In this document: positions 1-56,425 of the stretch, one piece after another | Position numbering within the stretch: position 1 is the stretch's first letter | Layout of the letters: the number at the start of each line of letters is the position of its first letter | Origin: a virus | Taxonomy: Duplodnaviria; Heunggongvirae; Uroviricota; Caudoviricetes | IMG/VR virus record: IMGVR_UViG_3300031999_000001 | Location: 136,058 to 200,057 of that record | DNA length: 64,000 nucleotides | Reading direction: 5' to 3' (one strand) | Translations under genes and position numbers: made by a program | Notes under the pieces: generated by a model | Databases searched by the model: none | What the model was told of the DNA's origin: nothing | Seen by the model: only the letters and a program-made list of their open reading frames with translations

Positions 1-1615
1 CTCCAGATTTTTCCAAATCTTGACCAATATCATGTTTAGCAACTTTTTTTGCTCCCCATCCTTTCGGAGCAGCAGGTAAATTTGCAATATCTTCATCTCC
101 ATATACTTCTTCTTCATTCATTGTTAGTTCATCTATTTTTGATAAATCATATTGCAAACCAATATAACCAATACTTGGATTCCATGACATTATATAACCA
201 TCTTTACGATATGTTTTATCAGCAGTTCCATGATTTTCTTCTTGTGAACCTTCATGTTCTCCGGGGTAATGCCATTGCTTCAAATATTCTAATGCAGCAT
301 CTTCACCTTCTCTATCAAGTCTTTCAAGTGCATCAAACGCTTCATCACCTTGTAAAAATACAACATTTTCATATTTATCATGATCTGTTGATTCATTAGC
401 ACTTATTTTAACTTTTTTTATTCTTATTTTCTTTTTCTTTGGATAATGTGTTTCTGGTTTAAATTCCTTACCAATAATATCTGGATAATCATTTGTTTTA
501 TTCGTATTTTCTAAAAACGGTTCAGCTTCTTTTGGAAATACTCTTCTTTTCTCAGGTGTTACGGGTTTTTCACCGATAAGTATATTAATTTCTCCCATCA
601 ACTCATTTATTGTTGGTGCATAATCAGGATTTCCTTTTCTTGTGATTATATTATCATATGCCTGCCAGATTATTTTTTTCTTTTTTTCATTTATTTTAGG
701 AACGGGTTCATCATCAACTTCTTTAGTATCATCAGTTGTTATTTGTGGAACTGTTATGGGTTGTTGCTGTGTTGCTTGTTTAAAACGTGCCAATTCCTGA
801 TTTATGATATCATCTTCTTCTTTATCCCATTCATTCAAATCAGCAATAACACTTTTGCCCGTAATTCTTTCAACCTCTGCTTTTAATTCTTGACTTGTCG
901 GTACATAATTAGAATTTGTATTTTTTGTAATTAAATTATCATATGCTGTATTAATAATCTGATAAGCCTTTGGTTTTGTAACACGTTGATTATCAAATTC
1001 ATCCATTTCATTAATATATTTTTCAAGTTCTTCTGCACTTACCCTTACATCTGGATTTGTTGGTTTTTCATCAGCATATGCTTTACCTGTTTGCATATTA
1101 TCCCTACCACCACCAAATGGATATGAATCAATTTTTTGTATTGCTTCTTCATAAAGACTATCAACAGGTTCTTCTTCTTCAATATCAATATATTCGTCAA
1201 TAATATCAAACAATTCATTATTATGCTGTGCATTAAATTGTTTTAATGCGTTTTCATCCATTTCAACACTATTTTCACTATTTGCATCATCAAATGTGAA
1301 ACTCATCATTATAACATTATCTATTTTATAAACACCTTCTTGATCTTGTTCGCTTGAAATTGTTTTAAACGTAAATGTTATATTATTTCCATTGTTGTCA
1401 ACACATAATAATTCAATAAAATTTTCATTATCTTTTGTTTGTGTATTACTGTGTTTTACTTTAAGATTACCACTTTTAAGTTCAGTAAATGCAACTTCAA
1501 GTACACTTTGGGGATTATAATTTTGTCCAAATGCTTCATTTAATTTAATTTTATTAACATTTTGAAACATTTCCAAAAATCTTTCCTTACTTCCTATTTG
1601 CTTATATATTTTCAT
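1..1615 (-). CDS. Large acidic protein (3'-truncated by window edge) with N-terminal KERFLEMF..KLNE leader; putative head-internal protein
   Basis: Absent from ORF track (no stop in window). Manual translation from ATG 1615: MKIYKQIGSKERFLEMFQNVNKIKLNEAFG..., apparently open to the edge; co-oriented with neighbours. Confidence 0.75.
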   Translation of the reverse strand, partial: MKIYKQIGSKERFLEMFQNVNKIKLNEAFGQNYNPQSVLEVAFTELKSGNLKVKHSNTQTKDNENFIELLCVDNNGNNITFTFKTISSEQDQEGVYKIDNVIMMSFTFDDANSENSVEMDENALKQFNAQHNNELFDIIDEYIDIEEEEPVDSLYEEAIQKIDSYPFGGGRDNMQTGKAYADEKPTNPDVRVSAEELEKYINEMDEFDNQRVTKPKAYQIINTAYDNLITKNTNSNYVPTSQELKAEVERITGKSVIADLNEWDKEEDDIINQELARFKQATQQQPITVPQITTDDTKEVDDEPVPKINEKKKKIIWQAYDNIITRKGNPDYAPTINELMGEINILIGEKPVTPEKRRVFPKEAEPFLENTNKTNDYPDIIGKEFKPETHYPKKKKIRIKKVKISANESTDHDKYENVVFLQGDEAFDALERLDREGEDAALEYLKQWHYPGEHEGSQEENHGTADKTYRKDGYIMSWNPSIGYIGLQYDLSKIDELTMNEEEVYGDEDIANLPAAPKGWGAKKVAKHDIGQDLEKSG

Positions 1616-1627
1616 ATCTATTTATTT

Positions 1628-2074
1628 TTATTCAAAAATTATTGGATTCGTCTTACCGAATTCTCTTAAAAAAACACCAGCAAGTGCATTTGCTTCATTT
1701 TCATGTTCACTGCCAGTATTGTTTGAATTCGATGTTAATTTACCCTCTTTATATTGCTTGTGATGTATTAATTCATGTGCTAATGTTCTTAATATGTCTG
1801 CTAAATTTCTATTTACTGCAACCACTCTTAATTCATTTGTTTCTGGTGTATATTTACCAAATGATTTCATATTTTCAGCTTCTTTATCATCATATGAAAT
1901 TTTTATATCTGGCATTTTATCACCTAAATTAAGCTGTTTATCGGCATATTCAACAAATTTGTTAATAACCTCATTTTTCTTTTCAACAGGAAGTACCTGT
2001 TCATTAAGATTATTAACTTTTTTCATCATTTCAAAAAGCCTTTCTTTTGAACCATATGAATAAAATATTTTCAT
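1628..2074 (-). CDS. HEXXH zinc metallopeptidase-like protein with N-terminal leader
   Basis: RTLAHELIHHKQ motif plus downstream ENEANALAG (third-ligand Glu); leader SKERLFEMMKKVNNLNE. Confidence 0.7.
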   Translation of the reverse strand: MKIFYSYGSKERLFEMMKKVNNLNEQVLPVEKKNEVINKFVEYADKQLNLGDKMPDIKISYDDKEAENMKSFGKYTPETNELRVVAVNRNLADILRTLAHELIHHKQYKEGKLTSNSNNTGSEHENEANALAGVFLREFGKTNPIIFE

Positions 2075-2076
2075 AA

Positions 2077-2616
2077 TTAACTTTCTGGTTCTCTACCCCT
2101 TAAATAAGGTGCTTCACTATCGTTTCCTGATTGATTTTTTGGTGTTTCTTGATTCCAAATTTCTTTTGCTTTATTATAAAAAGATTTTTCATCGCCAAAA
2201 TTTTCACCAATTACTGGAAATGCACCCATTTTTTCAACAAGATCAAAATCTTCAAGATGTTGAAGTTCTTCTGAACTCAACATTCCATCATAATCAGTTA
2301 AATCGCCATAATTATAAGCAATAGCATCTTTATAACCGGGTTTACCTGTCACTACATTATAATTAATCTGTAATCTTTCATATAATGCGTGCCAATCAAT
2401 TGAATTAAAATTACCAATACCTTGTTTATATTGTGGTCCGTCATCACGTTCTGGTTCATCTTGTGGGTCAAAAGCATCAGGTTGATACTCTGTTCCCATT
2501 GGTTCACCTGCATCGTTTTTTACGGTATTCCAACCTTCATTCAATTTTGGTTTAAATGTCGGGTCTATTTTTTGCATAACCTCAAAAAGTCTTTGTTTAT
2601 TGTCTTTTTTAACCAT
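2077..2616 (-). CDS. Hypothetical protein with KDNKQRLFEVM..KLNE leader
   Basis: Likely start ATG 2616 (MVKKDNKQRLFEVMQKIDPTF), directly after the upstream gene's stop at 2618. Confidence 0.7.
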   Translation of the reverse strand: MVKKDNKQRLFEVMQKIDPTFKPKLNEGWNTVKNDAGEPMGTEYQPDAFDPQDEPERDDGPQYKQGIGNFNSIDWHALYERLQINYNVVTGKPGYKDAIAYNYGDLTDYDGMLSSEELQHLEDFDLVEKMGAFPVIGENFGDEKSFYNKAKEIWNQETPKNQSGNDSEAPYLRGREPES

Positions 2617-2617: not shown

Positions 2618-3343
2618 TTATACAATTTCATTAAAACTATCTTGGACATCTATTTTTGATTTTTGCGGTAAATCATCAAAATCAGCAACAAACGTACCAT
2701 CAGGTAATTTGTTTATGCCCTTTTCCATTTCTTTATTTCTTTTTTCATTAAACCAATTTCCTGACCAAAAATCATTTAAATTAAAATAATATGGATAAGA
2801 AACATTAGTTTTGCTCATAAGTTTTTCAGAATTGGTTGGTTCACGAACTTCTTCAACATCAGCATTTAATGTATCTAATTTTGCATTTAATCCCTGAACA
2901 GTACTATCCAAACTTTCTAATTTATCATGAATACTTTTCATGGCTTCGATATTATGTTTAATAATATCATTTTGAATATCATCAACTTGTTGTTCTGGCT
3001 CTGCTGATGGCATTGGTGCACCCATACCCATAGGGTCGGTTGCTGTCATATCTACAGGTGCTCCATTTGTTTTTGTATCACCAGTTTTATCAAATGCTGG
3101 TATAGGAGCATCCATACCAATAGGTTGATCATTCGAAGGTGCTGGGGGCACTTCACCGCCACCCGGTTTTTCAGCATCTTCTTGATCACCAGCTTCATTA
3201 GTTAACGGAGGAACATCATCATATTCCTCGCCATCATTTACTAATGGGCGATATTTGGGAGATTCGTTGATTATATAATCAACACGATGTTTAATCTTTC
3301 TTAAATGTTCTTTAGAAAGATTATTTTTCTTATCATTTTTCAT
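2618..3343 (-). CDS. Hypothetical acidic/Pro-rich protein with coiled coil, probably head-associated
   Basis: 241 aa ORF; INE|S-type site near the N-terminus; heptad segment IHDKLESLDSTVQGLNAKLDTL. Confidence 0.6.
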   Translation of the reverse strand: MKNDKKNNLSKEHLRKIKHRVDYIINESPKYRPLVNDGEEYDDVPPLTNEAGDQEDAEKPGGGEVPPAPSNDQPIGMDAPIPAFDKTGDTKTNGAPVDMTATDPMGMGAPMPSAEPEQQVDDIQNDIIKHNIEAMKSIHDKLESLDSTVQGLNAKLDTLNADVEEVREPTNSEKLMSKTNVSYPYYFNLNDFWSGNWFNEKRNKEMEKGINKLPDGTFVADFDDLPQKSKIDVQDSFNEIV

Positions 3344-4596: not shown

Positions 4597-4884
4597 TTAA
4601 AGTTCCTCAATCCTTTTACTTTTATCGTCAATCAATAAATCATATGCTGGTTTTTGTCTCATAATTACATCATGAAACTTACAACCCCAATCAATTAATT
4701 GTTGTGCGGTTAACTCTGTCCAATTTATGCCAGTATTTTGTCCTCTGGCTGACCAATAAATTATTATATTACCCTCATCGTAAAGTTTATTAATTTTTGC
4801 AATATTCTTTGGAATTGGCTTTGCATTATCGTAACCCCCAACAGTCGTACATATTGTACCGTCTATGTCACAGTATATCAACAT
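4597..4884 (-). CDS. Minimal HAD-family phosphatase (capsule biosynthesis EcbF/BcbF-like)
   Basis: DIDGT motif I, SARG motif II, KP..D..IDDK motifs III/IV. Confidence 0.75.
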   Translation of the reverse strand: MLIYCDIDGTICTTVGGYDNAKPIPKNIAKINKLYDEGNIIIYWSARGQNTGINWTELTAQQLIDWGCKFHDVIMRQKPAYDLLIDDKSKRIEEL

Positions 4885-4896
4885 ATTCTAATTGTT

Positions 4897-5676
4897 TTAC
4901 TTAATTTTTTTTAAATCAACAATAACCACACCTCTTTGAGTTACCACCCAAGAAGCACATTTATTTGCAAATCGTATTGCTTCACAAATATCATTATTTT
5001 CCATGAATTTTGCAACAAGTGCTGCAAGAAAAGTATCACCAGCACCACTTAAATCCCTGACATTATGTTCATTTTCAATTGAAAATTTTTCAATTTTAAT
5101 TTCACCATCATCATTATAATTTAACATTGCACCATCTTTACCTAATGTTATAATAATATCATTTGGAAATTCATATGTTAAATATTCTTTATTTTCATTA
5201 TATTCTTTTTCATTAATTTTTATATATTTGATATTAAATGCCCATTTTCCAATTATTTTTTTTGTATCCATAAATATTAAAGGATGATTTTCTGCAATAT
5301 ATATAATATCATCATGACTTAAAAATCCTTTATTATAATCGGAAATTATAATTGCAACATATTGATTAAAATCAATTCCTTTCAATTCTTTTGCCCTTAA
5401 TGGTTTAATTTTATCATTTTCGTCAACCCTAAGTAACATTTGGTTTGAAACTTCATCAACATATCTCATTTTTACTGGTCTGATATCATTTGTAAAAATA
5501 TCACAATGAACACCTAATGCTTTGAGATTTTCATAAACATTTATTGCCATTCCACCATTACCAGTTGTTCTTAAGGGAAGAAAAATTGGTACGGGTGCTT
5601 CGGGACTTAATTTATCACATATTCCATATCTGAACACATCCTCACAACTATCGCCAATTACTAATACTTTTTTCAT
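4897..5676 (-). CDS. PfkB-family sugar kinase, HldE/RfaE kinase domain-like (heptose-7-phosphate kinase)
   Basis: VLVIGD, LSPEAPVP, ISDYNKG and DLSGAGDTF motifs. Confidence 0.85.
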   Translation of the reverse strand: MKKVLVIGDSCEDVFRYGICDKLSPEAPVPIFLPLRTTGNGGMAINVYENLKALGVHCDIFTNDIRPVKMRYVDEVSNQMLLRVDENDKIKPLRAKELKGIDFNQYVAIIISDYNKGFLSHDDIIYIAENHPLIFMDTKKIIGKWAFNIKYIKINEKEYNENKEYLTYEFPNDIIITLGKDGAMLNYNDDGEIKIEKFSIENEHNVRDLSGAGDTFLAALVAKFMENNDICEAIRFANKCASWVVTQRGVVIVDLKKIK

Positions 5677-7151
5677 TTCTTATTATATTTCTTTAATGCT
5701 ATTAATTGTTTTTTAATGTTTGATATTTCATAATCGGTTTCAAGCATTTTATTTAATGGTTTTTCCATACTAAATTCATTGATTTTTACTGATTTTTTAT
5801 ATACTTTTCTTATTGTTCTTAATAAATCACATTTATGTAAACCTTTAACACCAATTTGTGTAATAACATCAGAATTATCCCAATTTAACATTATTTTTTC
5901 GGCAATTTTACACCAAAACAATGTTGTAATACCATTCCAATAATAATTAACATAACCATTCACTTCTTCTTTTTCATCAACACTTAAAAACCAATCCAAT
6001 AAAGATTTATTTGAATTTAATTCATGCCCAATTATTGATGTTCTAATGATTTTGGTGTTCTTAAAATTATCAACAATTATTTTAGATATCTTAGCTTTAC
6101 TTTTACCATAATCATCATTAGCATCACGTTCATCGGTTTTTTTATATTTTTCTGGATATGGAATGTCTCCAGAAAATTCACAATCTGTTGAAGGATGAAG
6201 AACTTTTTTTCCGATAGATTCTAAAAATATTGGTAAATCAACATTAATTTTATCATAATCTTCTGATTTGTATTTTTTTTGCGGTATTGCACCAATACAA
6301 TTTATAATAAAATCAACATTACAATTAATTATAAAATCTTTAAATTCATTTGAATCCCATCTAAAATCACAGACATATACGATATATCTATTATTAAAAT
6401 ATTTATATACCATATTACCAAGCATTCCATTATGTCCCAATATCAGTAATTTTATACCTTCTTTTAATTTAAGTAATTCACGTTTTATTTTTGACATGTT
6501 TCTTATAATTCCATTCAGATTTTTACTTGTTACTGAATCATTATGTCTTCTTTTATAAGATAGAAATTCTGGTACGCCATCAAATGGTATGTTATAAATT
6601 GTTGATTTTATCATCCAATAATAATCTTCTGAAAATTTTAAATGTTCAGGAAATGGAAAATTTTTATAAACATATTTCGGAATGAAAATACCCGTAAATC
6701 CAATTCGTGATTTACACCAAATCGTTTCCTCAAATTTTTCAGAACTCATTTTTTTTGTTTCTCTCTTTTTTGTAATATTATTATCTTTATCAATTATCCA
6801 TGCATTATTATATAAAACAGATTTTGGAAATTTTTGCGCATATTCTATTTTTATTTTTAATAAATCTTTATCAAAATAATCATCTGCAGGACACCAACAC
6901 CAATAATCTCCATTACTTTCATCAAAACTTTTATTTATGATAACACCAACATTATCTTGTTTATCTAATTTAAAAATTTTAACCCTTTTATCATTTTCAT
7001 ATTCTTTAATTATATTTAATGAATCATCGGTGCTGCCATCATCATAAATGAGATATTCAAAATCCGTATAACTTTGATTTAAAACACTTTCTATTGCTTG
7101 CGCAATATATGAAGCATTGTTGTAATTAGATGTAAAAACCGATATTTTCAT
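5673..7151 (-). CDS. Fusion: GT2 glycosyltransferase + RmlD-like NDP-4-keto-6-deoxysugar reductase
   Basis: N-term YNNASYIAQAIESVLNQSY/DDGSTD/ADD/SEDY; C-term LILGHNGMLG, INCIG, HPSTDCEFSG, YGKSK. Confidence 0.85.
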   Translation of the reverse strand: MKISVFTSNYNNASYIAQAIESVLNQSYTDFEYLIYDDGSTDDSLNIIKEYENDKRVKIFKLDKQDNVGVIINKSFDESNGDYWCWCPADDYFDKDLLKIKIEYAQKFPKSVLYNNAWIIDKDNNITKKRETKKMSSEKFEETIWCKSRIGFTGIFIPKYVYKNFPFPEHLKFSEDYYWMIKSTIYNIPFDGVPEFLSYKRRHNDSVTSKNLNGIIRNMSKIKRELLKLKEGIKLLILGHNGMLGNMVYKYFNNRYIVYVCDFRWDSNEFKDFIINCNVDFIINCIGAIPQKKYKSEDYDKINVDLPIFLESIGKKVLHPSTDCEFSGDIPYPEKYKKTDERDANDDYGKSKAKISKIIVDNFKNTKIIRTSIIGHELNSNKSLLDWFLSVDEKEEVNGYVNYYWNGITTLFWCKIAEKIMLNWDNSDVITQIGVKGLHKCDLLRTIRKVYKKSVKINEFSMEKPLNKMLETDYEISNIKKQLIALKKYNKK

Positions 7152-7153
7152 AT

Positions 7154-7822
7154 TTATTTATTTATTAATTTTAAATTATATTTACTTACATTAAAATCAG
7201 ACCTACTACCTAATAATTTGGTCATATGAATATTATCACCATGTATTGTCAAAAGCACATTTAAATTATCTATTTTTATTCCTTTAATGAAAATTCCAAT
7301 ACTACCATGTGATTTTGAATATGGTATACATTTATATTCATCTTTTTTTTCCATAACTGAAATAAAACCACTTGTACCTGTTGCATTCCATGTTTTTTTT
7401 CCTTTTGTTATTATATTAATCATATCCATTTTTTTTATATCATAATAAAATGGAAATTCTGTTTCAATTATAGATTTATGAAGATTTTCAACAAAATCAT
7501 TACCCAAACAATTATCACTATCAATTCTTGTTGTTAAAACATATTCTTCATCAATAAGTTCCAGTAATTTCGGTAATATTTCTTTAAGAATTTTATTTGC
7601 TCCTGATGATTCAAGCAATAATTGATATTCATTACTAATTTTACCCACAGGTTCATATCCCCATAAAGTAACGAACTTAAAATTTTTATTAGTTTGCACT
7701 TCAATTGATGACCTTAATGTATTATTTAAAATATTAATTCTATTATTAAGCCAGACTTCATCTTTTGATTGTGGAAGCCATTTAATATTAACTCTACTAA
7801 CAATTAAATGTGTAAATTTCAT
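7154..7822 (-). CDS. Putative glycosyltransferase (putative rhamnosyltransferase-like, GT-A)
   Basis: WLNNR..SIEVQTNKNF and TTRIDSDN pattern. Confidence 0.6.
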   Translation of the reverse strand: MKFTHLIVSRVNIKWLPQSKDEVWLNNRINILNNTLRSSIEVQTNKNFKFVTLWGYEPVGKISNEYQLLLESSGANKILKEILPKLLELIDEEYVLTTRIDSDNCLGNDFVENLHKSIIETEFPFYYDIKKMDMINIITKGKKTWNATGTSGFISVMEKKDEYKCIPYSKSHGSIGIFIKGIKIDNLNVLLTIHGDNIHMTKLLGSRSDFNVSKYNLKLINK

Positions 7823-7825
7823 ATT

Positions 7826-8827
7826 TTACTTTATTAAAAAACCACCCTCAAATAATAATTCACGTAAATAATTTTTATCCTTTATATTATCTGCCGATGA
7901 AAATGTTTTAAAATTTACTTTTTTATGATTATTTAAGTACGTATATTCTTTATTTATTTTTATTGATGGTAATATAATATAATAATTTTCATAAAATTTA
8001 TATGAATTCACTGATTCGTGTTCAGATATTAATATTTCATGTACTTTCTCACCCTCTCTAATGCCAATCTCTTCAATTTTTGTATCTGAATTTCCATAAT
8101 ATTCAATCAACACCTTTGCTAAATCACTAATATAAAATGATGGCATATTCATTACAAAAGTTTCACCACCAATGCTATGTTCAGCAGCTTCAAATAATAA
8201 AAAAATTGCTTGAGATAATGTAAGAAAAAATCTGGTCATTGTCTTATCAGTAATTGTTACTTTATTTTGTGTTTTAATTTGATTAATAAAATGTGGAACA
8301 ACACTACCATTTGAACCCAAAACATTACCACCCCTAATACAAACAAAATCAGTATTATTTGTTAAATTATTTGCCTGAATTGTAAGTTTTTCACCAACCG
8401 ATTTTGTCATTCCATATAAATTCGTTGGTGAAACCGCTTTATCTGTTGAAATATCAACAAACTTTTTAACTCCATACTTAATAGCAGAATTAATTAAATT
8501 TATTGTTCCAATAATATTAGTTTTTATTGCTTCTTGTGGTTGATTTTCACAAACAGGAACATGTTTTAATGCTGCGAGATGAAAAACATAATTAATATTT
8601 TTATGATTAAATAATCTATCAACAGCATCCGCATCACGAACATCACCAATAATATATTCAATTTTATTATTATTAAATTTTCTCAGCATGTTTACTTGTG
8701 CAAGTTCACCACGAGAATATATAATTATTTTTTTTGGGTCTTTCTCCAAAAGTTGTAATGTTAATTCATTTCCCCATGAACCCGAACCACCATCAATTAA
8801 AATTATTTTGTTTTCAAACATAATCAT
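7826..8827 (-). CDS. UDP-GlcNAc 4,6-dehydratase/5-epimerase (FnlA/CapE/PseB family)
   Basis: GGSGSWG, GDVRD, FHLAALKHVP, STDKAV.P.NLYGMTK, GNVLGSNGSV, MTRF, GIREGEK. Confidence 0.9.
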   Translation of the reverse strand: MIMFENKIILIDGGSGSWGNELTLQLLEKDPKKIIIYSRGELAQVNMLRKFNNNKIEYIIGDVRDADAVDRLFNHKNINYVFHLAALKHVPVCENQPQEAIKTNIIGTINLINSAIKYGVKKFVDISTDKAVSPTNLYGMTKSVGEKLTIQANNLTNNTDFVCIRGGNVLGSNGSVVPHFINQIKTQNKVTITDKTMTRFFLTLSQAIFLLFEAAEHSIGGETFVMNMPSFYISDLAKVLIEYYGNSDTKIEEIGIREGEKVHEILISEHESVNSYKFYENYYIILPSIKINKEYTYLNNHKKVNFKTFSSADNIKDKNYLRELLFEGGFLIK

Positions 8828-9462
8828 TTATTAATTTTTATCATTCTTATTATTTTAAATGACTCAGCATATTCCAAATTAGATGAAAAACCACGAATAT
8901 TTGAATAACTCATTAATAGTTCTTTTGGTCTAAATTTTCTTACTTGTGATTTATGTAATTTATATGCATTTATTTTATTTTCAATATCAATTTCTTCAAA
9001 ATAATTTGGTTGAAATTCATTTTCACCCCAAAGTAAATATTGTTCAACCTCATAAACAAACACATTTGGTACAAAATAATTTAAATCATGTGGTCTTAAT
9101 GCAACAATACAAGCATCATAAACTTCTTTATGATCTTGATTGTATGAAAAATTTGGAATAAAAATTTCATTTGGTTTTAATTCATTAATAATATCAGTAA
9201 TTTCATTAATTATCATTTCTTTTTTATAATTATTTACTTGATTAGTACCTATTCGATATTCAAAATTTAAAAATTTCGATACTGCATCAACTTCTTTAAT
9301 TCTTTCATCTCTTCTCACAACATGAAATAAATCAATACCTAAATAATAAACAAAAGAACAATTATTATTTTTTCTATTATTTAAAATTCCAGCACAACCC
9401 AATACTTCATCATCACAATGTGGTGATATTATTAATGTTTTATATGTCTTTTTCATATTCAA
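8824..9462 (-). CDS. PIG-L/LmbE-family N-acetyl sugar deacetylase
   Basis: SPHCDDEVLG, NQDH, HKSQ, AESF motifs. Confidence 0.85.
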   Translation of the reverse strand: MNMKKTYKTLIISPHCDDEVLGCAGILNNRKNNNCSFVYYLGIDLFHVVRRDERIKEVDAVSKFLNFEYRIGTNQVNNYKKEMIINEITDIINELKPNEIFIPNFSYNQDHKEVYDACIVALRPHDLNYFVPNVFVYEVEQYLLWGENEFQPNYFEEIDIENKINAYKLHKSQVRKFRPKELLMSYSNIRGFSSNLEYAESFKIIRMIKINK

Positions 9463-10105
9463 TAATTTTTAATATAATTTTTCCAGTTTTACAATTAATA
9501 TAACATTCTGGATATGGTTTTTGTAACGAACGTACTTTATTATAAAAATATTCAGCATCGTTATTTAAAAAATCTTCTGGTTTTATTTCAGAATTATTTG
9601 GCTTTAAACGTTTGTATGTTGTAGCTTCTTCCTTATTTTGTTTTATCCATAATATTGAATCATTCTTATAATTTTCAATAAAATCTTTTGTTCCTATAAT
9701 ACCAAAATTTTCTATTTTTTTTAATATTATATCTAAATATCCGTTTAATTCAAAATCAACCTGATAATATATATCACCATCATCTAATCCCTTTTCCATT
9801 TTAAATATTGTAACTGCTGAAAATTTTTCCCCTGCAATTATTTGATTTTGTATTGGTGTTCCGCCTCTATATTTGGGTAATTTTGATGGATGTAAACATA
9901 AACAAATATAAGAATCAACAATTTTCTGAGACACCATCCAACTCCAACCATAAAAAAATATAACATCTGGATTTATTATATTAATAAAATCAATTGTACA
10001 TAATTTTTTATTTGTAATAAGTATATATTCATCTTCCAATGAAGATATTTCCTTAAAAATATTAATTGCCCAATCTCTATATGCAAAAAATAAAAATCTT
10101 TTCAT
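9440..10105 (-). CDS. Formyltransferase (Fmt-like, probably sugar N-formyltransferase)
   Basis: LHPSKLPKYRGGTP, LDDGDI, VRSLQKPYP. Confidence 0.85.
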   Translation of the reverse strand: MKRFLFFAYRDWAINIFKEISSLEDEYILITNKKLCTIDFINIINPDVIFFYGWSWMVSQKIVDSYICLCLHPSKLPKYRGGTPIQNQIIAGEKFSAVTIFKMEKGLDDGDIYYQVDFELNGYLDIILKKIENFGIIGTKDFIENYKNDSILWIKQNKEEATTYKRLKPNNSEIKPEDFLNNDAEYFYNKVRSLQKPYPECYINCKTGKIILKIIEYEKDI

Positions 10106-10863
10106 ATTTTTTTATGTTTTTCACCTTCCTGAAAATGATACACAATAGAATCATTTGAATTTATATGTTTTACACCAATTGAATTTAGTCTAACAAAAAA
10201 TTCAGTATCACCAGTTCTTGATATTATATTATATTTTCCATTATGTAAATTTCCTTCTGGATAATATCCAACCTTTTCAATAATATCTTTATATAGCATT
10301 ATTGGCATAAAAAGATTTCCAATTGAAATACTATCATTTTTTATTTCATTTACTTTTTTTAGAAACGCTTCTTCGTTAAAATTTTTTATTGTTTGTCCAA
10401 AATCATAATGTTCACAAACAGATAAATTAATTGGATTGGTAAATCTATGATGAGGCTGTATTATTTTTGAGGAAACCACAACTTCACGTGTTAATCTCTT
10501 TTTTAAATTAACTAACCAATCTGGTGAAAATGCATTATCGCTATTAATCAACATTATTATTGGATTATTAGACATTCTAATACCATAATTATATCCAGCA
10601 TATACTCTACTTATATATTCTGGATATGCAAATCCCATATTAAATAATTCTTGTTCTGTACGCTTAATATTATTATTTATAAAATGTGGATAATTTTTTT
10701 CTTTTAGAAGTTTTAATACATCATCAGTTGCATCATTAGCAACAAAATAAAATTCTGCTTCATCGCAATTAAGTTCAGGTGTGTGTTTTATGAGATTATT
10801 ATATACAAACTCGGCATATTCAACAGATTGATATATTAATGATATGATTGATATTTTTTCCAT
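10102..10863 (-). CDS. GT2-like glycosyltransferase
   Basis: INSDN DxD-like motif, VGYY, GD..F, VYHFQEGE. Confidence 0.7.
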   Translation of the reverse strand: MEKISIISLIYQSVEYAEFVYNNLIKHTPELNCDEAEFYFVANDATDDVLKLLKEKNYPHFINNNIKRTEQELFNMGFAYPEYISRVYAGYNYGIRMSNNPIIMLINSDNAFSPDWLVNLKKRLTREVVVSSKIIQPHHRFTNPINLSVCEHYDFGQTIKNFNEEAFLKKVNEIKNDSISIGNLFMPIMLYKDIIEKVGYYPEGNLHNGKYNIISRTGDTEFFVRLNSIGVKHINSNDSIVYHFQEGEKHKKI

Positions 10864-10867
10864 AATT

Positions 10868-11551
10868 TTATTTCTTTGGTATTAACATTATTGAACATCT
10901 TGGCACATAATGAACTTTAGTATTATATAAAATTTTATTATTAATTTTATCATTTTTTTTCATTAATTGACATATATACATATCTGGTAGATCAGTCATA
11001 TATTCAACATCATATTTATCAAGAATATTATTATAATAATATAATTGTTCCGAATATGTTTTTTTATTAAAATCAAACCAGTCATGAATAAAAATACATT
11101 TACTATGATTAATTAAATTTAAAAAATTTTCATTTATGAATTTTGCCATTTTGGTAGAATGTTCACAATCAATCAAGAACATATCAAATTCGTTATTTTT
11201 AATAAACTTTTGAATTACATCATATTGTTCATAAAGATTAATTTTTTCATATTTTATATCATAAAATATTGGTTGTAATGCAAAACTTGTGCGTTTAATT
11301 CCTAAACTATCAATAAATTTACTTGAACTTCCAGCACCGAATTCAACAACATTTGTTATATTATTTTCAAATATAAACCTTTTTAATATAAATAAATCAA
11401 ATGGATTTATGCCGAAATTTTGTCCGATTAATTTTACAATATCATCTAATCTATATTCATCAATAAAATTAAAAATCTTATTGAAAATATTCTGATAATT
11501 ATATTTATAATTATTTGAATTTGATATTATTATTCCCCATTCATCTCCCAT
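10868..11551 (-). CDS. Class I SAM-dependent methyltransferase
   Basis: VVEFGAGSSS, FLIDCEH, IFIHD. Confidence 0.7.
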   Translation of the reverse strand: MGDEWGIIISNSNNYKYNYQNIFNKIFNFIDEYRLDDIVKLIGQNFGINPFDLFILKRFIFENNITNVVEFGAGSSSKFIDSLGIKRTSFALQPIFYDIKYEKINLYEQYDVIQKFIKNNEFDMFLIDCEHSTKMAKFINENFLNLINHSKCIFIHDWFDFNKKTYSEQLYYYNNILDKYDVEYMTDLPDMYICQLMKKNDKINNKILYNTKVHYVPRCSIMLIPKK

Positions 11552-11552
11552 T

Positions 11553-12386
11553 TTACATATTATTTATATAATTTTCCCATAAAATTTTGCCCGTATATCT
11601 GTCCCATTGTTTTTCGAAAATAACATCTCTTGGATTATCACCCGCTTCAAAATCTTTTTCAATATTTAAAATTTTTCTTTGTTTAAGATTACATGCCATT
11701 CCTTCATATTCAATAATATAATAGGGTCTTAAAAGACTGACAGATAATTGAAAATCAGCACAATTCATCAATTCTACCATTTTTTGTTGATTTATTAATA
11801 CGTGTTGTTGACCATATCCATTAAAATCACCCTTATTTGGATACCAAACAATAATCCAATAAATGCTCGGATTCTCATTTGCATATTTTTGAACATGTTG
11901 AAATCCTTTCATTGGATGTGTTGTTCCACACCAAAAACCAATTTCTTTATTTAATGGAACACCATATTTTAATTTTAAATTATATTTTTCTTCATCTGAA
12001 TACGATTTAAATAAATCAGTATTAACACAAATAGGTAATATATCAACTTTACCATACGGTTCATAAAATGGTACTGCAAATTTTGATGATACAACTCTTC
12101 TGTTGGCTGCTTTTGCAGTTTGATATGTTACATTAATAACACCATCCCAATGATTAACATTAAAAACTTCTTTCATTTCAGGATATAATTCCCAACATAA
12201 AGCAATTACATTTGCTGGCATTGCATTTAACGGTCCTGCAGTTGAATATCTTAAAACAGTATCATTTTCATTATATTGTAAAGGAAGTTTAAATGATGTG
12301 TTTTCAAAAACTTTTTCAAACCACACCCAAAATGTTTCTTCTCCATATGCACATTTTAATCCATGTATTGGTGATAAATATATCAT
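11553..12386 (-). CDS. GT-B (GT4-like) glycosyltransferase
   Basis: VNTDLFK, HPMKG, LMNCAD, EGMACN. Confidence 0.7.
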   Translation of the reverse strand: MIYLSPIHGLKCAYGEETFWVWFEKVFENTSFKLPLQYNENDTVLRYSTAGPLNAMPANVIALCWELYPEMKEVFNVNHWDGVINVTYQTAKAANRRVVSSKFAVPFYEPYGKVDILPICVNTDLFKSYSDEEKYNLKLKYGVPLNKEIGFWCGTTHPMKGFQHVQKYANENPSIYWIIVWYPNKGDFNGYGQQHVLINQQKMVELMNCADFQLSVSLLRPYYIIEYEGMACNLKQRKILNIEKDFEAGDNPRDVIFEKQWDRYTGKILWENYINNM

Positions 12387-12922
12387 TTTTTTAAAAATTT
12401 TAATGTTCTTCTATCATTATCCCTACAAACAATTGTAATTCCAGCAACTCCAATTGGAAGTGTGATTAAATTTAATTCTGGATGATTTTCTTTAATCCAA
12501 TCATGCATTTTATATGAATCACTACAATACATTTGTTCTAAATACTTTTCTTCAAATGGGTCTGTATCATGAAGAAGAATAATACCATGAATATTTAAAC
12601 ATTTTAACGAATTTTCAAAATCTCTTTTCACTTGTTCAAAACGATGATCAGCATCAATAAAAATAATATCAGCATATCCAATAAAATCTTTAAAAAACTC
12701 ATCAGTTGTTTTTAAATGAAACTCAAAATTTCTAAAAAGTAATTTATCATCAATATCAACACCAATACACCTTTTAGAATATTTAGTAATTTCCTTAATG
12801 TTTAATCCTTGTAACACACCCAATTCCAAATAAGTTTCACATCCGGTTAATTCAACAATTTTAGATATTAACGTTGGATGTAATTCAAATTTACTATAAT
12901 TATATGCAAATCTGTTTATCAT
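12383..12922 (-). CDS. Class I SAM methyltransferase (Methyltransf_24-like)
   Basis: YLELGV, IFIDADH, GIILLHD. Confidence 0.85.
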   Translation of the reverse strand: MINRFAYNYSKFELHPTLISKIVELTGCETYLELGVLQGLNIKEITKYSKRCIGVDIDDKLLFRNFEFHLKTTDEFFKDFIGYADIIFIDADHRFEQVKRDFENSLKCLNIHGIILLHDTDPFEEKYLEQMYCSDSYKMHDWIKENHPELNLITLPIGVAGITIVCRDNDRRTLKFLKK

Positions 12923-12961
12923 ATTTTTCCAATTAATATATTAATTAAACAATAATTTTTA

Positions 12962-13822: not shown

Positions 13823-13823
13823 T

Positions 13824-14477
13824 TTAATATATATATGTTAATTCCATATAATTAATTAAATTTTTATTTTTATACTCTATAATATATGGTAGTATTGCCA
13901 TATTTAATGCGGTATATCCTTTATCAATTTTTGTTCGTACCATTAAACCCGTCCATGATGATGGAGATTTAAGAAAATATTTAATAAATCCATTAACATT
14001 AATTAAATTATAATCATAAAATGGAATCCCCGCATATTGACAATCATGATATAAAATCAAATCAAATTTATCATAAAGAGCATTAATTGATAGTGTTCTA
14101 CATGCTGTAAATTGATCAACAAACAATAGATTTGGTTTTAATTCTGGAATAACTAAATTATGATAATAATTAAAAATTTCAAATTTTTTATCATCGGATA
14201 ATTCTTTAAGATGTGTAAATATTTTAACTTCATTTAAGTCATGATAAATTACATCAATATTTTTATATTTATTTCTAATGTGGTCAATCCATTCCTTATC
14301 ACTTTCAACACCTAATAATTTGGTTTTATAATTAAGAAAAACGGGTGTTGAATTATCTCCGATTCCTAATTCAAGTACAAATGCTGGTGTATACAATTCC
14401 ATTACCGCTTTTATTATTGGTTGATGTGTTGACCATTCATAACCATTATTGATATTCATATTACTTTTATTTTCCAA
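13824..14477 (-). CDS. Putative SAM-dependent methyltransferase
   Basis: STHQP, VLELGIGDNST, LLFVD, ILYHD. Confidence 0.6.
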   Translation of the reverse strand: MENKSNMNINNGYEWSTHQPIIKAVMELYTPAFVLELGIGDNSTPVFLNYKTKLLGVESDKEWIDHIRNKYKNIDVIYHDLNEVKIFTHLKELSDDKKFEIFNYYHNLVIPELKPNLLFVDQFTACRTLSINALYDKFDLILYHDCQYAGIPFYDYNLINVNGFIKYFLKSPSSWTGLMVRTKIDKGYTALNMAILPYIIEYKNKNLINYMELTYIY

Positions 14478-16322: not shown

Positions 16323-16333
16323 TAAATATTTTT

Positions 16334-53195: not shown

Positions 53196-53747
53196 TTAAT
53201 TTCCTTTTGTTTCGTTTAAAAATGGAACAACATCCTCTTTTACTGGCACACCAGTTACTCGTTTCCAATATGATTTAAATCCACCAATCGTTTTATTTGT
53301 AGTATCTGTTACATTATTAGCACTTTCAACTTCATAATATCTGTTTTTTTGACCACTAATATTATATTCAATAACATCACCACGGTCAATTTCTATTTGT
53401 TTTTCTTCCAGTTCTTTAAGATAAACACCAAATATAATATTTCCACTATCATCACGTGCAATACCACCCTGATATCCACCATAATTTTCCTGTTTACCAT
53501 CTTCAACTGTAATCATTACACTAATTCTAATTGGTAACATGTATTTTTTGTCTTTTGTTTTTGCCTGACCATATAAATTATGTGATTTTGTTTCAATTAA
53601 ATTGATTTTATGCAAAATAATTTCTTGAGCATTATCTGTTTGTAAAAAATTTCTACCGTACATCACATCTAATTCAAAAGAATTTTCTGTCATAAATAAA
53701 CCCATTCTGTTATTTTCAAGGTCAATTATTTGTTTTTTCTTTTTCAT
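53196..53747 (-). CDS. Head completion/neck protein (gp14-like)
   Basis: NLYGQA..K.Y..P, FGVY..ELEE....I.RGD, YYEV; follows the neck gene. Confidence 0.55.
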   Translation of the reverse strand: MKKKKQIIDLENNRMGLFMTENSFELDVMYGRNFLQTDNAQEIILHKINLIETKSHNLYGQAKTKDKKYMLPIRISVMITVEDGKQENYGGYQGGIARDDSGNIIFGVYLKELEEKQIEIDRGDVIEYNISGQKNRYYEVESANNVTDTTNKTIGGFKSYWKRVTGVPVKEDVVPFLNETKGN

Positions 53748-54595
53748 TAATCAATTATTTTAAAGCCATCTGGTTCAAGTAAATTTACATCATTGGTAAA
53801 TATTTGATATTGTTTGTCAATTACCCAATCTGGAACATTTGATCTATCAATACCATTTTCAATATCTTTTTTTATTCTTTCTTTTGCAATTTCAGGACTA
53901 ACACTAAATATTTTAGCAAAACCTTCAAATGGCATATCAACATGAACTTTCATATAATCCATAAGCGATTTTCTATTTTTTGATTTAATATTTGTAGCAT
54001 CAAAAATCACATCTTTACCAATATTTAGTACATCTGCAGTTTTTTTCATTGCCAATGCAAATACTTCATTATTTTTTGTTTGATCTGATATGTTTCCTGT
54101 TAATTCTTTTCTTATTTTATCTGGCGAAACAATAATAGTATTTGAATTTTGCATTGATTTAATCCACATAGATTTACCACTTCCTGAAATACCAACTGGA
54201 ATAATTAATTTTGGTTTTTTTGTTTTTATTTCTTCTGCTATTTCAGTACCAATTTCATGTCCATTATCATCAAATTTATTTGGAAATTTTATTTTCCAAT
54301 CAAAAAGTTTTTGCACGCCTTTATTATTTACAACCCCAATTTTTTCATCAATATTAATGTTTTTTCTAATTAATTTTTTCGCATCTTCTAATGTGAATTT
54401 TATAACACTTGGGTCACCATATTTTACACGATAATCGCATGTGTTGATACCATGTTGGTCTATTGATGTTACAAAACATTTACCATATCCACGTGATATT
54501 CGAAATATTGCCCATGTATTATCAATTGAATTTGAAAATTCTGGATTAAGTCTTTCCATCATTTCAAAAAGTCGTTGTTTGTTGTCTTTTTTCAT
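53747..54595 (-). CDS. Leader-tagged P-loop kinase (AAA_33 / polynucleotide-kinase-like C-terminal domain)
   Basis: MKKDNKQRLFEMMERLN leader; GISGSGKS Walker A, SPD.IR, VIFDATN, R..VP..VI. Confidence 0.8.
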   Translation of the reverse strand: MKKDNKQRLFEMMERLNPEFSNSIDNTWAIFRISRGYGKCFVTSIDQHGINTCDYRVKYGDPSVIKFTLEDAKKLIRKNINIDEKIGVVNNKGVQKLFDWKIKFPNKFDDNGHEIGTEIAEEIKTKKPKLIIPVGISGSGKSMWIKSMQNSNTIIVSPDKIRKELTGNISDQTKNNEVFALAMKKTADVLNIGKDVIFDATNIKSKNRKSLMDYMKVHVDMPFEGFAKIFSVSPEIAKERIKKDIENGIDRSNVPDWVIDKQYQIFTNDVNLLEPDGFKIID

Positions 54596-54596
54596 A

Positions 54597-55715
54597 TTAA
54601 ATTGCTATTATTGGGAACATTGGTGGTTGATAACCACGTTCTTTATTAACATTTTCAGCAATTTTAGCACGTTCTTCAGTAAAAGTAACCTGACTTAATT
54701 TATCTAATTGTTCTAATAATAATTTTTCAGTATCTTCTTTCAATTTAGTGCCTTCTTCAAGCAAATGACGATAATCCATTGTTAATTGTTTTTCAGTAAC
54801 ACCAAGTTCACCACTATAGAAACCTCTAATACCACCAATTACAATTTTTACTTGTGCAATAAGTAAATTACGAATTTGCTGATGTGCAACATCATTTATT
54901 TTGCTCCATTCTAATACTTTTGCTGGTGGGTCTGATGGTAATTTAATAACATCTGAATTTTCTTCTAAACATTTATCTCTACCTGTTTGATTAGTATCAT
55001 AATACCAATACCAAACTTTTCTACCAGCATAATGTTTACCCCACACACCTTGAATTTCATCACGAGAACCGGGTATTGGATACAAATGTAATAATTTTTC
55101 ACCACTTGCCAAACCAGTAACACGATATGTTAATATTGATTGTAATACTCTTTGTTTCATTCTTCTATCCTGTGCAGATAATAGTGTTGAAAATGTTGGT
55201 TGTACATACATTGCGGGACGACCAAGATATGCCCATCCAACCATACCGGGTGACCATGCATTCAATGCAAAGGGGTCAACCAAACCACCATCAATTTGTG
55301 GTGGTGTTTCCCACAATACTTCATTTATTTCACGACCCGCAGGAATTAAGTAATGTTGTGTACTTGCCTGAGTTACAATAAAATCACGTTTAAGTTCCCA
55401 TCCAGTAGCAGCAGGTGCATTTGTTCCCAATCCTACTTGTCTTGAATATGCATATGTATAGGATTCCATATAAGTGTTTGATTTTGTAGTAAACGCCGAT
55501 AAGAAATCGCTATTTTCTTTACTTAAACCTTCTAACCCAATCCATTGCTGATGAATAAACCAATTATTTACTATTGATGAATAATCCTCAACAACCATTT
55601 CAAGATATGAATCCATCATTTCATCCTTTATTTCAAAAGGTCTTAATGGAAATCCCAATACATGTTTAACATGAAGGAATAATTTATTTTTATCAACTGT
55701 TGTTATTAGTGCCAT
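54597..55715 (-). CDS. Neck/head-tail adaptor protein (gp13-like)
   Basis: LGFPLRPFE, LHLYPIP, IR....A..K...G.IRG..SG, MDY..L..EG. Confidence 0.65.
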   Translation of the reverse strand: MALITTVDKNKLFLHVKHVLGFPLRPFEIKDEMMDSYLEMVVEDYSSIVNNWFIHQQWIGLEGLSKENSDFLSAFTTKSNTYMESYTYAYSRQVGLGTNAPAATGWELKRDFIVTQASTQHYLIPAGREINEVLWETPPQIDGGLVDPFALNAWSPGMVGWAYLGRPAMYVQPTFSTLLSAQDRRMKQRVLQSILTYRVTGLASGEKLLHLYPIPGSRDEIQGVWGKHYAGRKVWYWYYDTNQTGRDKCLEENSDVIKLPSDPPAKVLEWSKINDVAHQQIRNLLIAQVKIVIGGIRGFYSGELGVTEKQLTMDYRHLLEEGTKLKEDTEKLLLEQLDKLSQVTFTEERAKIAENVNKERGYQPPMFPIIAI

Positions 55716-55720
55716 ATATA

Positions 55721-56425
55721 TTAACTTCTACTTTGTGCTTTTTCACCAAAATAAACATATTTAAATTCAACGGGTTTTAGTAAATGATTACCTGCTGCAA
55801 GTTCATACACTCTACTAACAAACAATTTTCTTGTTGGAAATGGTGATGAATCTGTTCTTTGAGGTGGAAAAAATGGTTTAATTTCTTCAAAATCTGTTAC
55901 AATTCTATAATTAGGAGGGTTTTTTAATCCTTCAATACCAGCATTTATATCATAAATAGCATATGTTGATTTACCAAAACCTTGTGGTAAAATTGTGAAA
56001 TAATCACCATCAGGACCCGATTCAACATATTTCATATCAGGATGTTTCACTAATGAAGTTTGTCTGTTTAGGTCTGGTGTCCAATTCGGGTCGAATTTTT
56101 TCATTTTGTTTGAATATAATTCACCAAAACTAAATGAATACCAACTACTTTTAAATATGATAGCATGGTCAAATATTTCACTATACATTGGATTTTTTAT
56201 TGCGTTTTTGCCTCTTCCCTCTAAATTTTTATTAATTTTTACGGGTGCACAATAATAAACAAATGCTACACTTCCTAATTTAGGATTTATTGCAAGAAAA
56301 TCAAAAAAATCTTCAACTGTCGTTATTTGTTTGGCTTCACTGATATAATTTTCAATGAGCCTATACTCATTATCAATAATTGACATCACTTCCTGAAGTC
56401 TTTGTTTGTTAATCTCTGTTTTCAT
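55721..56425 (-). CDS. Hypothetical protein with NKQRLQEVM..LIE leader
   Basis: MKTEINKQRLQEVMSIIDNEYRLIENYISE; late promoter at 56442-49. Confidence 0.7.
   Translation of the reverse strand: MKTEINKQRLQEVMSIIDNEYRLIENYISEAKQITTVEDFFDFLAINPKLGSVAFVYYCAPVKINKNLEGRGKNAIKNPMYSEIFDHAIIFKSSWYSFSFGELYSNKMKKFDPNWTPDLNRQTSLVKHPDMKYVESGPDGDYFTILPQGFGKSTYAIYDINAGIEGLKNPPNYRIVTDFEEIKPFFPPQRTDSSPFPTRKLFVSRVYELAAGNHLLKPVEFKYVYFGEKAQSRS

What the first reader, a model, noticed from the sequence alone, without database searches (positions are those of the whole stretch)
1..56425. Shared N-terminal leader on unrelated proteins: putative capsid-targeting sequence for packaged/injected cargo
Seen: five otherwise dissimilar ORFs start with [SN]K[EQ]R[LF][FLQ]E[MV][MF]xx[VIL][ND]: 1615 (GSKERFLEMFQNVNKIKLNE), 2074 (GSKERLFEMMKKVNNLNE), 2616 (DNKQRLFEVMQKIDPTFKPKLNE), 54595 (DNKQRLFEMMERLN) and 56425 (INKQRLQEVMSIIDNEYRLIE). 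Four are followed closely by an [LI]xE site like the MCP MINE|S junction, and the scaffold ends in a loosely similar helix (HLQRMRKII). Known: T4 internal proteins use a short CTS removed by gp21 protease after [LI]xE. Inference: a modular tag loads a metalloprotease, a kinase and unknown proteins into the head for delivery at infection, possibly as anti-defence effectors.
Basis: partly seen in the sequence, partly recalled or inferred. Interest (0 to 1): 0.8.

Follow-up and report, generated by a model that had tools for sequence, protein, structure and literature searches.

The report
Capsid-loading leader tag on phage proteins
An uncultured giant T4-like phage puts the same ~25-residue N-terminal tag on unrelated proteins; it most likely works like phage T4's capsid-targeting sequence, loading them into the head for delivery with the DNA, so it is a new variant of a known trick, not a new kind of system.

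Summary
A loose motif, K[EQ]R[LF]xE[MV][MF], hits exactly five places in the whole 200-kb record. All five lie 8-18 residues into an ORF, and shuffles give none.

The record is a 61%-complete contig of an uncultured jumbo phage clade (320-365 kb) with a T4-type capsid protein. Complete relatives encode a T4 gp21-type prohead protease directly upstream of scaffold and capsid genes.

A leader HMM finds about 50 further copies in relatives, always at N-termini, on 26 unrelated body families. A profile search finds at least 627 protein clusters in public metagenomes.

Most leaders end in [LI]-N-E. This is the same site that is invariant at the capsid protein's propeptide junction in 80 of 80 relatives.

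Recognisable cargo:
- a Pnk-type polynucleotide kinase
- an HExxH peptidase
- a DUF5661 protein
- in relatives, an ART-PolyVal ADP-ribosyltransferase

Some metagenome proteins carry a second internal copy or a C-terminal copy, so the tag acts at protein level.

Best reading (about 0.7): a T4-like capsid-targeting and processing leader. Packaging, cleavage and injection are inferred, not shown.

The scan noted this same leader in an overlapping window of this genome. It has found the same kind of tag, with other sequences, on other T4-like phage DNA.

The parts
1..1615 (-). Tagged protein (a), 831 aa. The gene runs off the left edge of the window (record 135177-137672). The leader is its first 27 aa (window 1535-1615) and ends in K-L-N-E. 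The body holds DUF5661.
   Evidence: 23.8 bits; DUF5661, 41 bits against a cut-off of 27. Leader-bearing homologues are syntenic in G001 and G003.
1628..2074 (-). Tagged protein (b), 148 aa, an HExxH metallopeptidase. The leader is its first 25 aa (2000-2074) and ends in N-L-N-E.
   Evidence: Peptidase_M78, 22.3 bits against a cut-off of 22; phrog_87 metallo-protease, 1.2e-7; 30.6 bits. Conserved in 4 of 4 genomes.
2077..2616 (-). Tagged protein (c), 179 aa from the ATG at 2616, with an acidic body of no known family. The leader is its first 27 aa (2536-2616) and ends in K-L-N-E. It is the best match to the family consensus.
   Evidence: 45.7 bits.
53747..54595 (-). Tagged protein (d), 282 aa. 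Order: leader (first 20 aa, 54536-54595), unknown ~70-aa beta domain, disordered linker holding I-A-E, then a Pnk-type polynucleotide 5'-kinase domain. There is no [LI]xE straight after the leader.
   Evidence: AAA_33, 1.9e-18; C. thermocellum Pnkp kinase, 4e-10; AF2; Foldseek 4GP6, 1.8e-8; T4 Pnk, hhalign 90%; Walker A, D159 and R162 conserved.
55721..56425 (-). Tagged protein (e), 234 aa, no known family. It has a divergent leader (first 25 aa, 56351-56425) ending in R-L-I-E.
   Evidence: 26.4 bits; homologues carry a weaker leader.
61079..62752 (-). T4 gp23-type major capsid protein. The N-terminal 60-aa propeptide (62573-62752) ends in I-N-E|S.
   Evidence: Pfam Gp23, 1.6e-65; [LI][NK]E invariant in 80 of 80 relatives; propeptide homologous to the T4 delta piece.
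62774..64000 (-). Scaffold protein, cut off by the end of the contig (full length is 430-680 aa in relatives). The protease gene that follows it in relatives lies beyond the contig end.
54597..55715 (-). Conserved 372-aa core gene (p372) lying between tagged genes (e) and (d). Its gp13-like neck identity is not established.
   Evidence: 57 homologues; hhalign vs T4 gp13, E 0.18.
53196..53747 (-). Conserved 183-aa core gene (p183). The slot between p372 and p183 varies from -20 to 2427 nt among relatives and holds leader cassettes.
2618..3343 (-). Conserved 241-aa protein just upstream of (c). It has its own ~26-aa N-terminal helix ending in I-x-E-[ST]-P. It is a probable further protease substrate, not a leader-family member by HMM.
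   Evidence: no HMM hit; I-x-E kept in 4 of 4 genomes.

Best explanation
The shared N-terminus is a capsid-targeting and processing leader of the T4 type, in a new sequence form.

Anatomy. The tag begins with Met plus 3-8 residues. An amphipathic helix follows (consensus K-Q-R-L-F-E-V-M-x-K-V-D-x-x-F), then a short spacer, then in most copies [LI]-N-E.

Proposed mechanism (inferred by analogy with T4):
1. The helix binds the scaffolding core while the prohead assembles, so any protein carrying it is enclosed.
2. The gp21-type serine protease cuts the capsid protein at I-N-E|S and degrades the scaffold.
3. The same protease clips the leader at [LI]-N-E and frees the cargo inside the head.
4. 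The cargo leaves with the DNA at infection.

Copies without a site, such as the kinases, would be packaged with the leader left on, or cut elsewhere, for example at the I-A-E in the kinase linker.

What is shown: the motif, its strict N-terminal position, its spread over unrelated bodies, the match of its end to the MCP site, and the presence of the protease in relatives.

What is inferred: binding to the core, cleavage, packaging, injection, and any role of the cargo.
For: 1. Non-random and N-terminal. There are five hits in 200 kb, all at ORF starts, and none in shuffles. The leader HMM gives 53 hits above 10 bits among 21,071 stop-to-stop segments of four genomes and 77 loci, and all are at ORF starts. 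50 lie 1-8 aa after a Met; for two HExxH homologues and one stub no ATG lies upstream. The best non-N-terminal hit scores 7.5 bits.

2. Portable. The 52 tagged ORFs fall into 26 body families. At least 627 protein clusters match at E<=0.01 against 5.8 billion proteins.

3. T4-type head. The MCP matches Pfam Gp23 at 1.6e-65 and its propeptide is homologous to T4's. Peptidase_S77 sits next to scaffold and MCP in 5 of 5 complete relatives, with H85 and S140 of T4 gp21 conserved. The scaffold carries 3.7 [LI]xE per 100 aa, the 98th percentile of the proteome.

4. Matching cut site. 27 of 49 leaders have [LI]xE 16-24 residues after the Lys, against 16% of control N-termini (p=4e-10), and 23 of them are exactly [LI]NE. 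Among the 122 database hits, 98 have the site and 94 are exactly [LI]NE. The MCP junction is [LI][NK]E in 80 of 80 relatives, and INE in 75.

5. Selection acts on the protein. Identical residues often use different codons. The motif holds in genomes of 26-40% G+C. About 15 proteins carry a second, internal leader, mostly without a Met before it. Three carry a copy at the very C-terminus.

6. The leader is a free appendage. In the AF2 model of the kinase it is a lone helix at pLDDT 45-48, apart from the folded domains. It is amphipathic, with muH 0.35-0.50 against a control median of 0.23.

7. Cargo loci are hypervariable slots between conserved genes. In one relative they lie next to the terminase and T4-type portal genes.

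8. Cargo types fit injected proteins. ART-PolyVal scores above Pfam's cut-off in a relative. HExxH peptidase and DUF5661 are in the window. Alt of T4 and the polyvalent proteins are the published precedents (PMC5512222).

9. T4 precedent. Propeptides of 10-19 aa target internal proteins to the core and are removed by gp21, and targeting survives loss of cleavage (PMC9026906). [quoted passage not shown]
Against: - There is no direct evidence that any tagged protein is in a virion or is cut.
- The record itself holds no protease or portal gene. This fits a contig that ends inside the scaffold gene and is 61% complete, but the protease is shown only in relatives.
- About 45% of leaders in relatives, including the window's kinase, have no [LI]xE after the helix.
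- The leader has no sequence likeness to T4's MKTYQEFIAE and is more than twice as long.
- The first tagged cluster continues downstream into recombination and replication genes, so expression timing is unknown.
- The upstream GTATTTAT motif also precedes non-structural genes.
- The fifth protein (e) is a weak member.
Confidence: 0.7

Rival explanations
1. The leader is a recognition tag for a different enzyme that modifies or cuts it. One candidate is a RiPP-like maturase. Another is the leader-bearing HExxH peptidase (b) acting as a dedicated leader peptidase. Under this reading it is not a capsid address.
For: An earlier case in this scan (e1-127136) showed that a shared phage N-terminal tag can belong to a radical-SAM system. 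The HExxH peptidase is conserved in 4 of 4 genomes next to tagged protein (a), so a tag-specific peptidase is conceivable.
Against: Each complete relative has one Radical_SAM ORF. It lies at least 98 kb from any leader gene in G004 and at least 140 kb in G001, and the window's record has none. The leader's end matches the invariant MCP junction, which points to the head protease. The peptidase itself carries the tag, like the other cargo.
Confidence: 0.08
2. The leader addresses proteins to another assembly or place, not the head interior. Examples are the neck, tail or baseplate, or a site in the infected cell.
For: Two tagged genes flank conserved genes that first-stage notes call neck genes. 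Many leaders lack a cut site and could be permanent anchors.
Against: The neck identity of p372 and p183 could not be confirmed. The [LI]NE end equals the MCP maturation site, and that protease acts inside the prohead in T4. The leader has no hydrophobic stretch like a secretion signal.
Confidence: 0.1
3. The shared N-terminus is a generic oligomerisation or regulatory helix, or a relic of cassette exchange by recombination at a conserved 5' end. It has no sorting role.
For: Cargo sits in hypervariable slots where cassette exchange clearly happens. Fused double modules exist.
Against: Amino acids are conserved through synonymous change and across 26-40% G+C. Internal and C-terminal copies exist. 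The strong enrichment of one specific protease site after the helix is not expected of a recombination relic.
Confidence: 0.07
4. The conservation lies in the mRNA or DNA, for example a translation start element, and the peptide is incidental.
For: The motif begins within a few codons of the start codon in nearly all cases.
Against: Nucleotide identity between leader pairs is 0.51-0.73, with 1 in 8 to 5 in 10 identical residues encoded by different codons. Internal copies without a start codon and C-terminal copies exist.
Confidence: 0.02

Closest known systems
Capsid targeting sequence (CTS) of phage T4 internal proteins IPI, IPII and IPIII, with the related propeptides of Alt, gp67 and gp68
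   Same: Both are N-terminal peptides shared by otherwise unrelated proteins of a phage with a gp23-type capsid, a gp22-type scaffold and a gp21-type protease. Both end in [LI]xE. Cargo is diverse and sits in plastic loci. Targeting and cutting are separable in T4 (PMC9026906, PMC3012670, PMC5694885). The T4 record does hold two ORF starts encoding MKTYQEFIAE.
   Different: There is no sequence likeness. The leader is 20-27 aa rather than 10-19 and has two parts, a helix and a spacer ending in LNE. It occurs in a jumbo lineage whose MCP is only about 28% identical to T4's over the aligned part. It is found on at least 627 protein clusters, including enzymes. Some proteins have internal or C-terminal copies. 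About half of the copies in relatives lack the cut site. Nothing has been shown experimentally.
Propeptides of head and ejection proteins of phiKZ-like giant phages (phiKZ, SPN3US), removed by the S80 prohead protease
   Same: These are giant phages in which many internal and ejected proteins carry N-terminal propeptides cut at x-x-E motifs by a gp21-related protease. Two SPN3US paralogues share an identical 15-residue N-terminus (PMC5694885).
   Different: The protease family differs (S80, not S77), and so does the site (S/A/G-x-E). No single leader shared by dozens of unrelated proteins has been described there.
Polyvalent proteins and MuF-fused effectors of phages (Iyer et al. 2017, PMC5512222)
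   Same: The predicted purpose is the same: proteins carried in the head and injected with the DNA. Cargo domains overlap: ART-PolyVal and a zincin-like peptidase.
   Different: In polyvalent proteins many domains are strung in one giant polypeptide or fused to a head protein. Here most cargo proteins are separate small genes, each with its own address tag, and only occasional two-module fusions are seen.
Cargo-loading peptides of encapsulins (from general knowledge, not tested here)
   Same: A short portable peptide on unrelated enzymes docks them inside an HK97-fold shell.
   Different: Encapsulin peptides are usually C-terminal, bind the shell protein itself and are not removed. They are not phage systems.

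Membership tests
T4-type capsid targeting sequence system | A short terminal peptide shared by otherwise unrelated proteins of one phage | tested here: met
   Five in the record and none by chance. 52 tagged ORFs fall in 26 body families in relatives.
T4-type capsid targeting sequence system | T4 gp23-type capsid protein with a cleavable N-terminal propeptide | tested here: met
   Pfam Gp23 at 1.6e-65. The propeptide aligns to the T4 delta piece. The [LI][NK]E junction is invariant in 80 of 80 relatives. Cleavage itself is not shown.
T4-type capsid targeting sequence system | gp21-type (Peptidase_S77) prohead protease encoded by the phage | tested here: inconclusive
   Absent from this 61%-complete record, which ends inside the scaffold gene. 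Present directly upstream of the scaffold in 5 of 5 complete relatives, with His85 and Ser140 kept.
T4-type capsid targeting sequence system | Leader ends in the protease site [LI]-x-E | tested here: met
   4 of 5 in the window. 27 of 49 in relatives against 16% of controls, p=4e-10. 98 of 122 database hits. Not met by the kinases.
T4-type capsid targeting sequence system | Sequence likeness to the T4 CTS (MKTYQEFIAE) | tested here: not met
   Compared by eye, the consensus xxKQRLFEVMxKVDxxFKPKLNE shares nothing with MKTYQEFIAE; no alignment was run. The 27-mer has no tblastn hit in 50,697 cultured phage records at E<=10. The T4 system is defined by function, not homology, so this lowers kinship, not mechanism.
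T4-type capsid targeting sequence system | Tagged proteins are enclosed in the prohead, the tag is removed, and the tag suffices to load a foreign protein | not testable with these tools
   Needs virion proteomics or a leader-reporter packaging assay.
Polynucleotide 5'-kinase (Pnk/Pnkp kinase domain), for cargo (d) | P-loop kinase fold with Walker A plus the Asp and Arg that act on the 5'-OH end (T4 Pnk D35, R38; residue roles from general knowledge) | tested here: met
   AAA_33 at 1.9e-18. C. thermocellum Pnkp kinase at 4e-10 by sequence and 1.8e-8 by fold. hhalign to T4 Pnk at 90%, with GxxGSGKS, D159 and R162 invariant. There is no phosphatase domain, and activity is untested.
Radical-SAM/RiPP-like tag system (rival) | A maturase gene encoded close to the tagged genes | tested here: not met
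   One Radical_SAM ORF per complete relative, at least 98 kb (G004) to 140 kb (G001) from any leader gene. None in this record.
Sec/Tat or lipoprotein signal peptide (rival) | Hydrophobic core of about 10 or more residues after a basic N-end | tested here: not met
   The leader's mean hydrophobicity is -0.15 to -0.35, and charged residues occur every 2-4 positions.

The most novel reading that the evidence does not exclude
The tag marks the whole set of proteins that this uncultured jumbo-phage clade injects with its DNA, hundreds of families. Its commonest recognisable cargo is a Pnk-type 5'-kinase. This kinase is delivered ready-made to mend RNA cut by host anticodon or other RNA nucleases before any phage gene is expressed. 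Such a counter-defence is not known to be virion-borne. Tandem tag-cargo fusions are cut into separate effectors inside the head.
Probability: 0.2. Interest if true: 0.7.

Novelty: new variant of a known kind. Interest (0 to 1): 0.45.

Why it matters
If the tag is a capsid address, a simple profile search lists the probable injected proteome of a large, uncultured clade of 320-365-kb phages. That proteome is mostly proteins of no known family, plus kinases, a peptidase and an ADP-ribosyltransferase. This would give candidates for early host take-over and counter-defence functions.

It would also give a second, longer loading peptide that could be tried for packing foreign proteins into T4-type heads.

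It also shows that the T4 strategy of a conserved tag on diverse cargo extends far beyond the T-even phages, and at much larger scale.

Tried and rejected
- Complex prediction of the leader (alignment A2) with the window's scaffold fragment (alignment A3): score 0.00, no verdict. This is neither support nor evidence against binding.
- AF2 model of the conserved 372-aa neighbour: too poor to search (pLDDT 56).
- Neck-gene identity. hhalign of that protein against T4 gp13 gave E 0.18, probability 0.3%. The 183-aa neighbour shows no likeness to T4 gp14. The 'neck gene' label of first-stage notes is therefore unconfirmed.
- Protein (e): the Atlas look-up and the PDB sequence search gave nothing.
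- Leader-region search with a single protein: only 6 hits. The profile search was needed.
- megablast of the region and tblastn of the 27-mer leader against cultured phages: no match.
- GTATTTAT upstream motif as a late-gene marker: rejected, because it precedes structural and non-structural genes alike.
- Radical-SAM linkage: rejected.
- Literature search for the motif strings: no relevant paper.
Full report
**Observation.**
- A loose regular expression for the core, K[EQ]R[LFIMV].E[MVIL][MFIL], hits five places in the six-frame translation of the window, and the same five in the whole 200,057-bp record. All lie 8-18 residues after the preceding stop codon. Fifty shuffles gave none.
- Four of the five are followed by [LI]xE. 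The kinase is not.
- The third ORF most likely starts at the inner ATG (2616). That gives the family's usual Met plus 3-8 residues and removes an overlap with the upstream gene.

**What the genome is.**
- The window is the last 64 kb of an IMG/VR contig rated 61% complete.
- Its major capsid protein (61079-62752) matches Pfam Gp23 at 1.6e-65. It is 28% identical to T4 gp23 over the core.
- Its first 60 residues are homologous to the T4 propeptide (…W.…LLEG…FENQ…).
- 156 IMG/VR contigs encode a relative of this MCP; the 80 kept are 74-89% identical. Complete ones are 320-365 kb, and two have terminal repeats.
- The nearest cultured phages are only 30-43% identical in MCP. This is an uncultured jumbo branch of the T4-like phages.
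- The contig ends inside the scaffold gene. In relatives the next gene upstream is a Peptidase_S77 (T4 gp21) protease. It scores 1.1e-18 in L003, is present in 5 of 5 complete genomes, and keeps His85 and Ser140 of T4 gp21.
- The scaffold of L003 has 20 [LI]xE sites. That is 3.7 per 100 residues, the 98th percentile of that genome's ORFs.

**The leader as a family.**
- I built an HMM from the 20 conserved columns. I searched it against all 21,071 stop-to-stop segments of the record, three complete relatives and 77 loci.
- It gave 53 hits above 10 bits, all at ORF starts: 50 lie 1-8 residues after a Met, and for three (two HExxH homologues, one stub) no ATG was found upstream. The best hit elsewhere scored 7.5 bits.
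- Each complete genome has about 6-10 copies.
- The 52 tagged ORFs fall into 26 body families.
- A profile of 45-residue N-termini found at least 627 protein clusters at E<=0.01 against 5.8 billion proteins, of 80-2000 residues (the 120 listed: 84-533).
- The consensus is xxKQRLFEVMxKVDxxFKPKLNE.
- There is a second subtype, GSKER[FL][LF]EM[FM]QxVNKVKLNE. It sits on the conserved large protein (a) and on the HExxH peptidase (b).

**Link to the protease.**
- In 27 of 49 non-identical leaders, an [LI]xE has its Glu 16-24 residues after the Lys. The figure for control N-termini is 16% (p=4e-10). Twenty-three of the 27 are exactly [LI]NE.
- Among the 122 database proteins, 98 have the site and 94 are [LI]NE.
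- The MCP junction is INE in 75, LNE in 2 and LKE in 3 of 80 relatives.
- So the leader's end and the capsid protein's maturation site are the same tripeptide.
- T4 gp21 cuts after [LI]xE, for example ITE-6 and LTE-619 in Alt (PMC5694885).

**Protein-level function.**
- Leader pairs within the record are 51-73% identical in DNA. Between 1 in 8 and 5 in 10 of their identical residues use different codons.
- The motif holds in genomes of 26-40% G+C.
- About 15 metagenome proteins carry a second, internal leader, mostly with no Met before it. These are fused tag-cargo modules.
- Three proteins end in a leader-like helix at the very C-terminus.
- Two kinases are fused to a second cargo through an I-N-E junction.
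- These facts exclude an mRNA-level explanation.
- In the AF2 model of the kinase, the leader is a lone helix at pLDDT 45-48, separate from two folded domains.
- Its hydrophobic residues (L4, M8, V11, F15) line one face of the helix.

**Cargo.**
- (d) is a Pnk-type kinase. Kinases make up 21 of the 122 best database hits. The other ~100 have no significant Pfam family apart from four single weak hits.
- (b) is an HExxH peptidase.
- (a) holds DUF5661.
- Relatives add ART-PolyVal (above Pfam's cut-off), GP88, DUF4313 and a cupin.
- An ADP-ribosyltransferase and a zincin-like peptidase are typical of proteins thought to be injected with phage DNA (PMC5512222).

**Gene context.**
- Tagged genes occupy a slot between two conserved genes, p372 and p183. 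The spacing of these two genes ranges from overlapping to 2.4 kb. Ten of 15 ORFs in the slot carry the leader.
- On a 100-kb relative contig, four tagged genes lie within 10 kb upstream of the terminase and T4-type portal genes.

**Comparison with what is known.**
- T4 internal proteins carry 10-19-residue propeptides that target them to the scaffolding core and are removed by gp21. An Asp at position 10 blocks cutting but not targeting (PMC9026906).
- Internal proteins of T-even phages are diverse, with only the CTS conserved (PMC3012670).
- The present leader works like this on every testable count. It differs in being unrelated in sequence, longer, far more widely deployed, attached to enzymes, and present in tandem and C-terminal forms.
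- No paper in the library holds the motif.
- The scan itself noted this leader in an overlapping window of the same genome. It has reported analogous tags with other sequences on other T4-like phage DNA.
- One such earlier case turned out to be a radical-SAM tag. I tested that rival here and found no linkage.

**Limits.**
- No experiment bears on packaging or cleavage.
- The protease is shown only in relatives.
- Nearly half of the leaders in relatives lack the site.
- Expression timing is unknown.
- The complex prediction gave no verdict.

**Verdict.** This is a new variant of a known kind, with confidence 0.7 in the capsid-targeting reading.

Noticed in passing
Relatives G002 (about 214260-215930) and G005 (about 29167-30717), not in the window: The Peptidase_S77 match is split into two pieces inside one open frame of about 600-650 aa, against about 233 aa elsewhere. 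This suggests an insertion in the prohead protease gene, such as an intein or a homing-endonuclease domain.
   Followed up: no
window 2618-3343 (-): The conserved 241-aa protein has its own N-terminal helix (…HLRKIKxRVxY…) ending in I-x-E-[ST]-P in 4 of 4 genomes. It is probably another substrate of the head protease, though not a leader-family member by HMM.
   Followed up: partly
window 53196-55715 and the matching stretch of 47 relatives: The spacing between the conserved genes p372 and p183 varies from -20 to 2427 nt. The slot is filled mostly by leader-tagged cassettes, making it a hypervariable cargo locus like the T-even ip loci.
   Followed up: yes
metagenome proteins P0007-P0021, P0086, P0037, P0043: Some proteins have two leaders, one N-terminal and one internal. 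Some have a leader-like helix at the very C-terminus. Some kinases are fused to a second cargo through an I-N-E junction.
   Followed up: partly
window 54250-54330 (-), residues 99-125 of the kinase: The disordered linker between the unknown N-domain and the kinase domain holds I-A-E. It is L-S-E, L-G-E or I-G-E in four of five relative variants. This is a possible internal protease site that would free the kinase.
   Followed up: partly
whole record; for example window 56442, 3571, 3582, 44005, 41081, 27513: GTATTTAT lies mostly 11-40 nt upstream of about 40 gene starts on the sense strand. These include the sheath, tube and baseplate genes and the heads of both tagged operons, but also non-structural genes. 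It looks like a general promoter-like element.
   Followed up: partly
window 1628-2074 homologues in G001 (116434) and G004 (171006): The HExxH peptidase homologues have the leader but no ATG upstream of it in the open frame, so they may use another start codon.
   Followed up: no
window 4597-23197 and 59259-61049: A long glycosyltransferase and sugar-nucleotide island, and a large ORF after the capsid gene that first-stage notes call Mom-like plus GIY-YIG, were seen in the ORF lists and earlier notes but not studied here.
   Followed up: no
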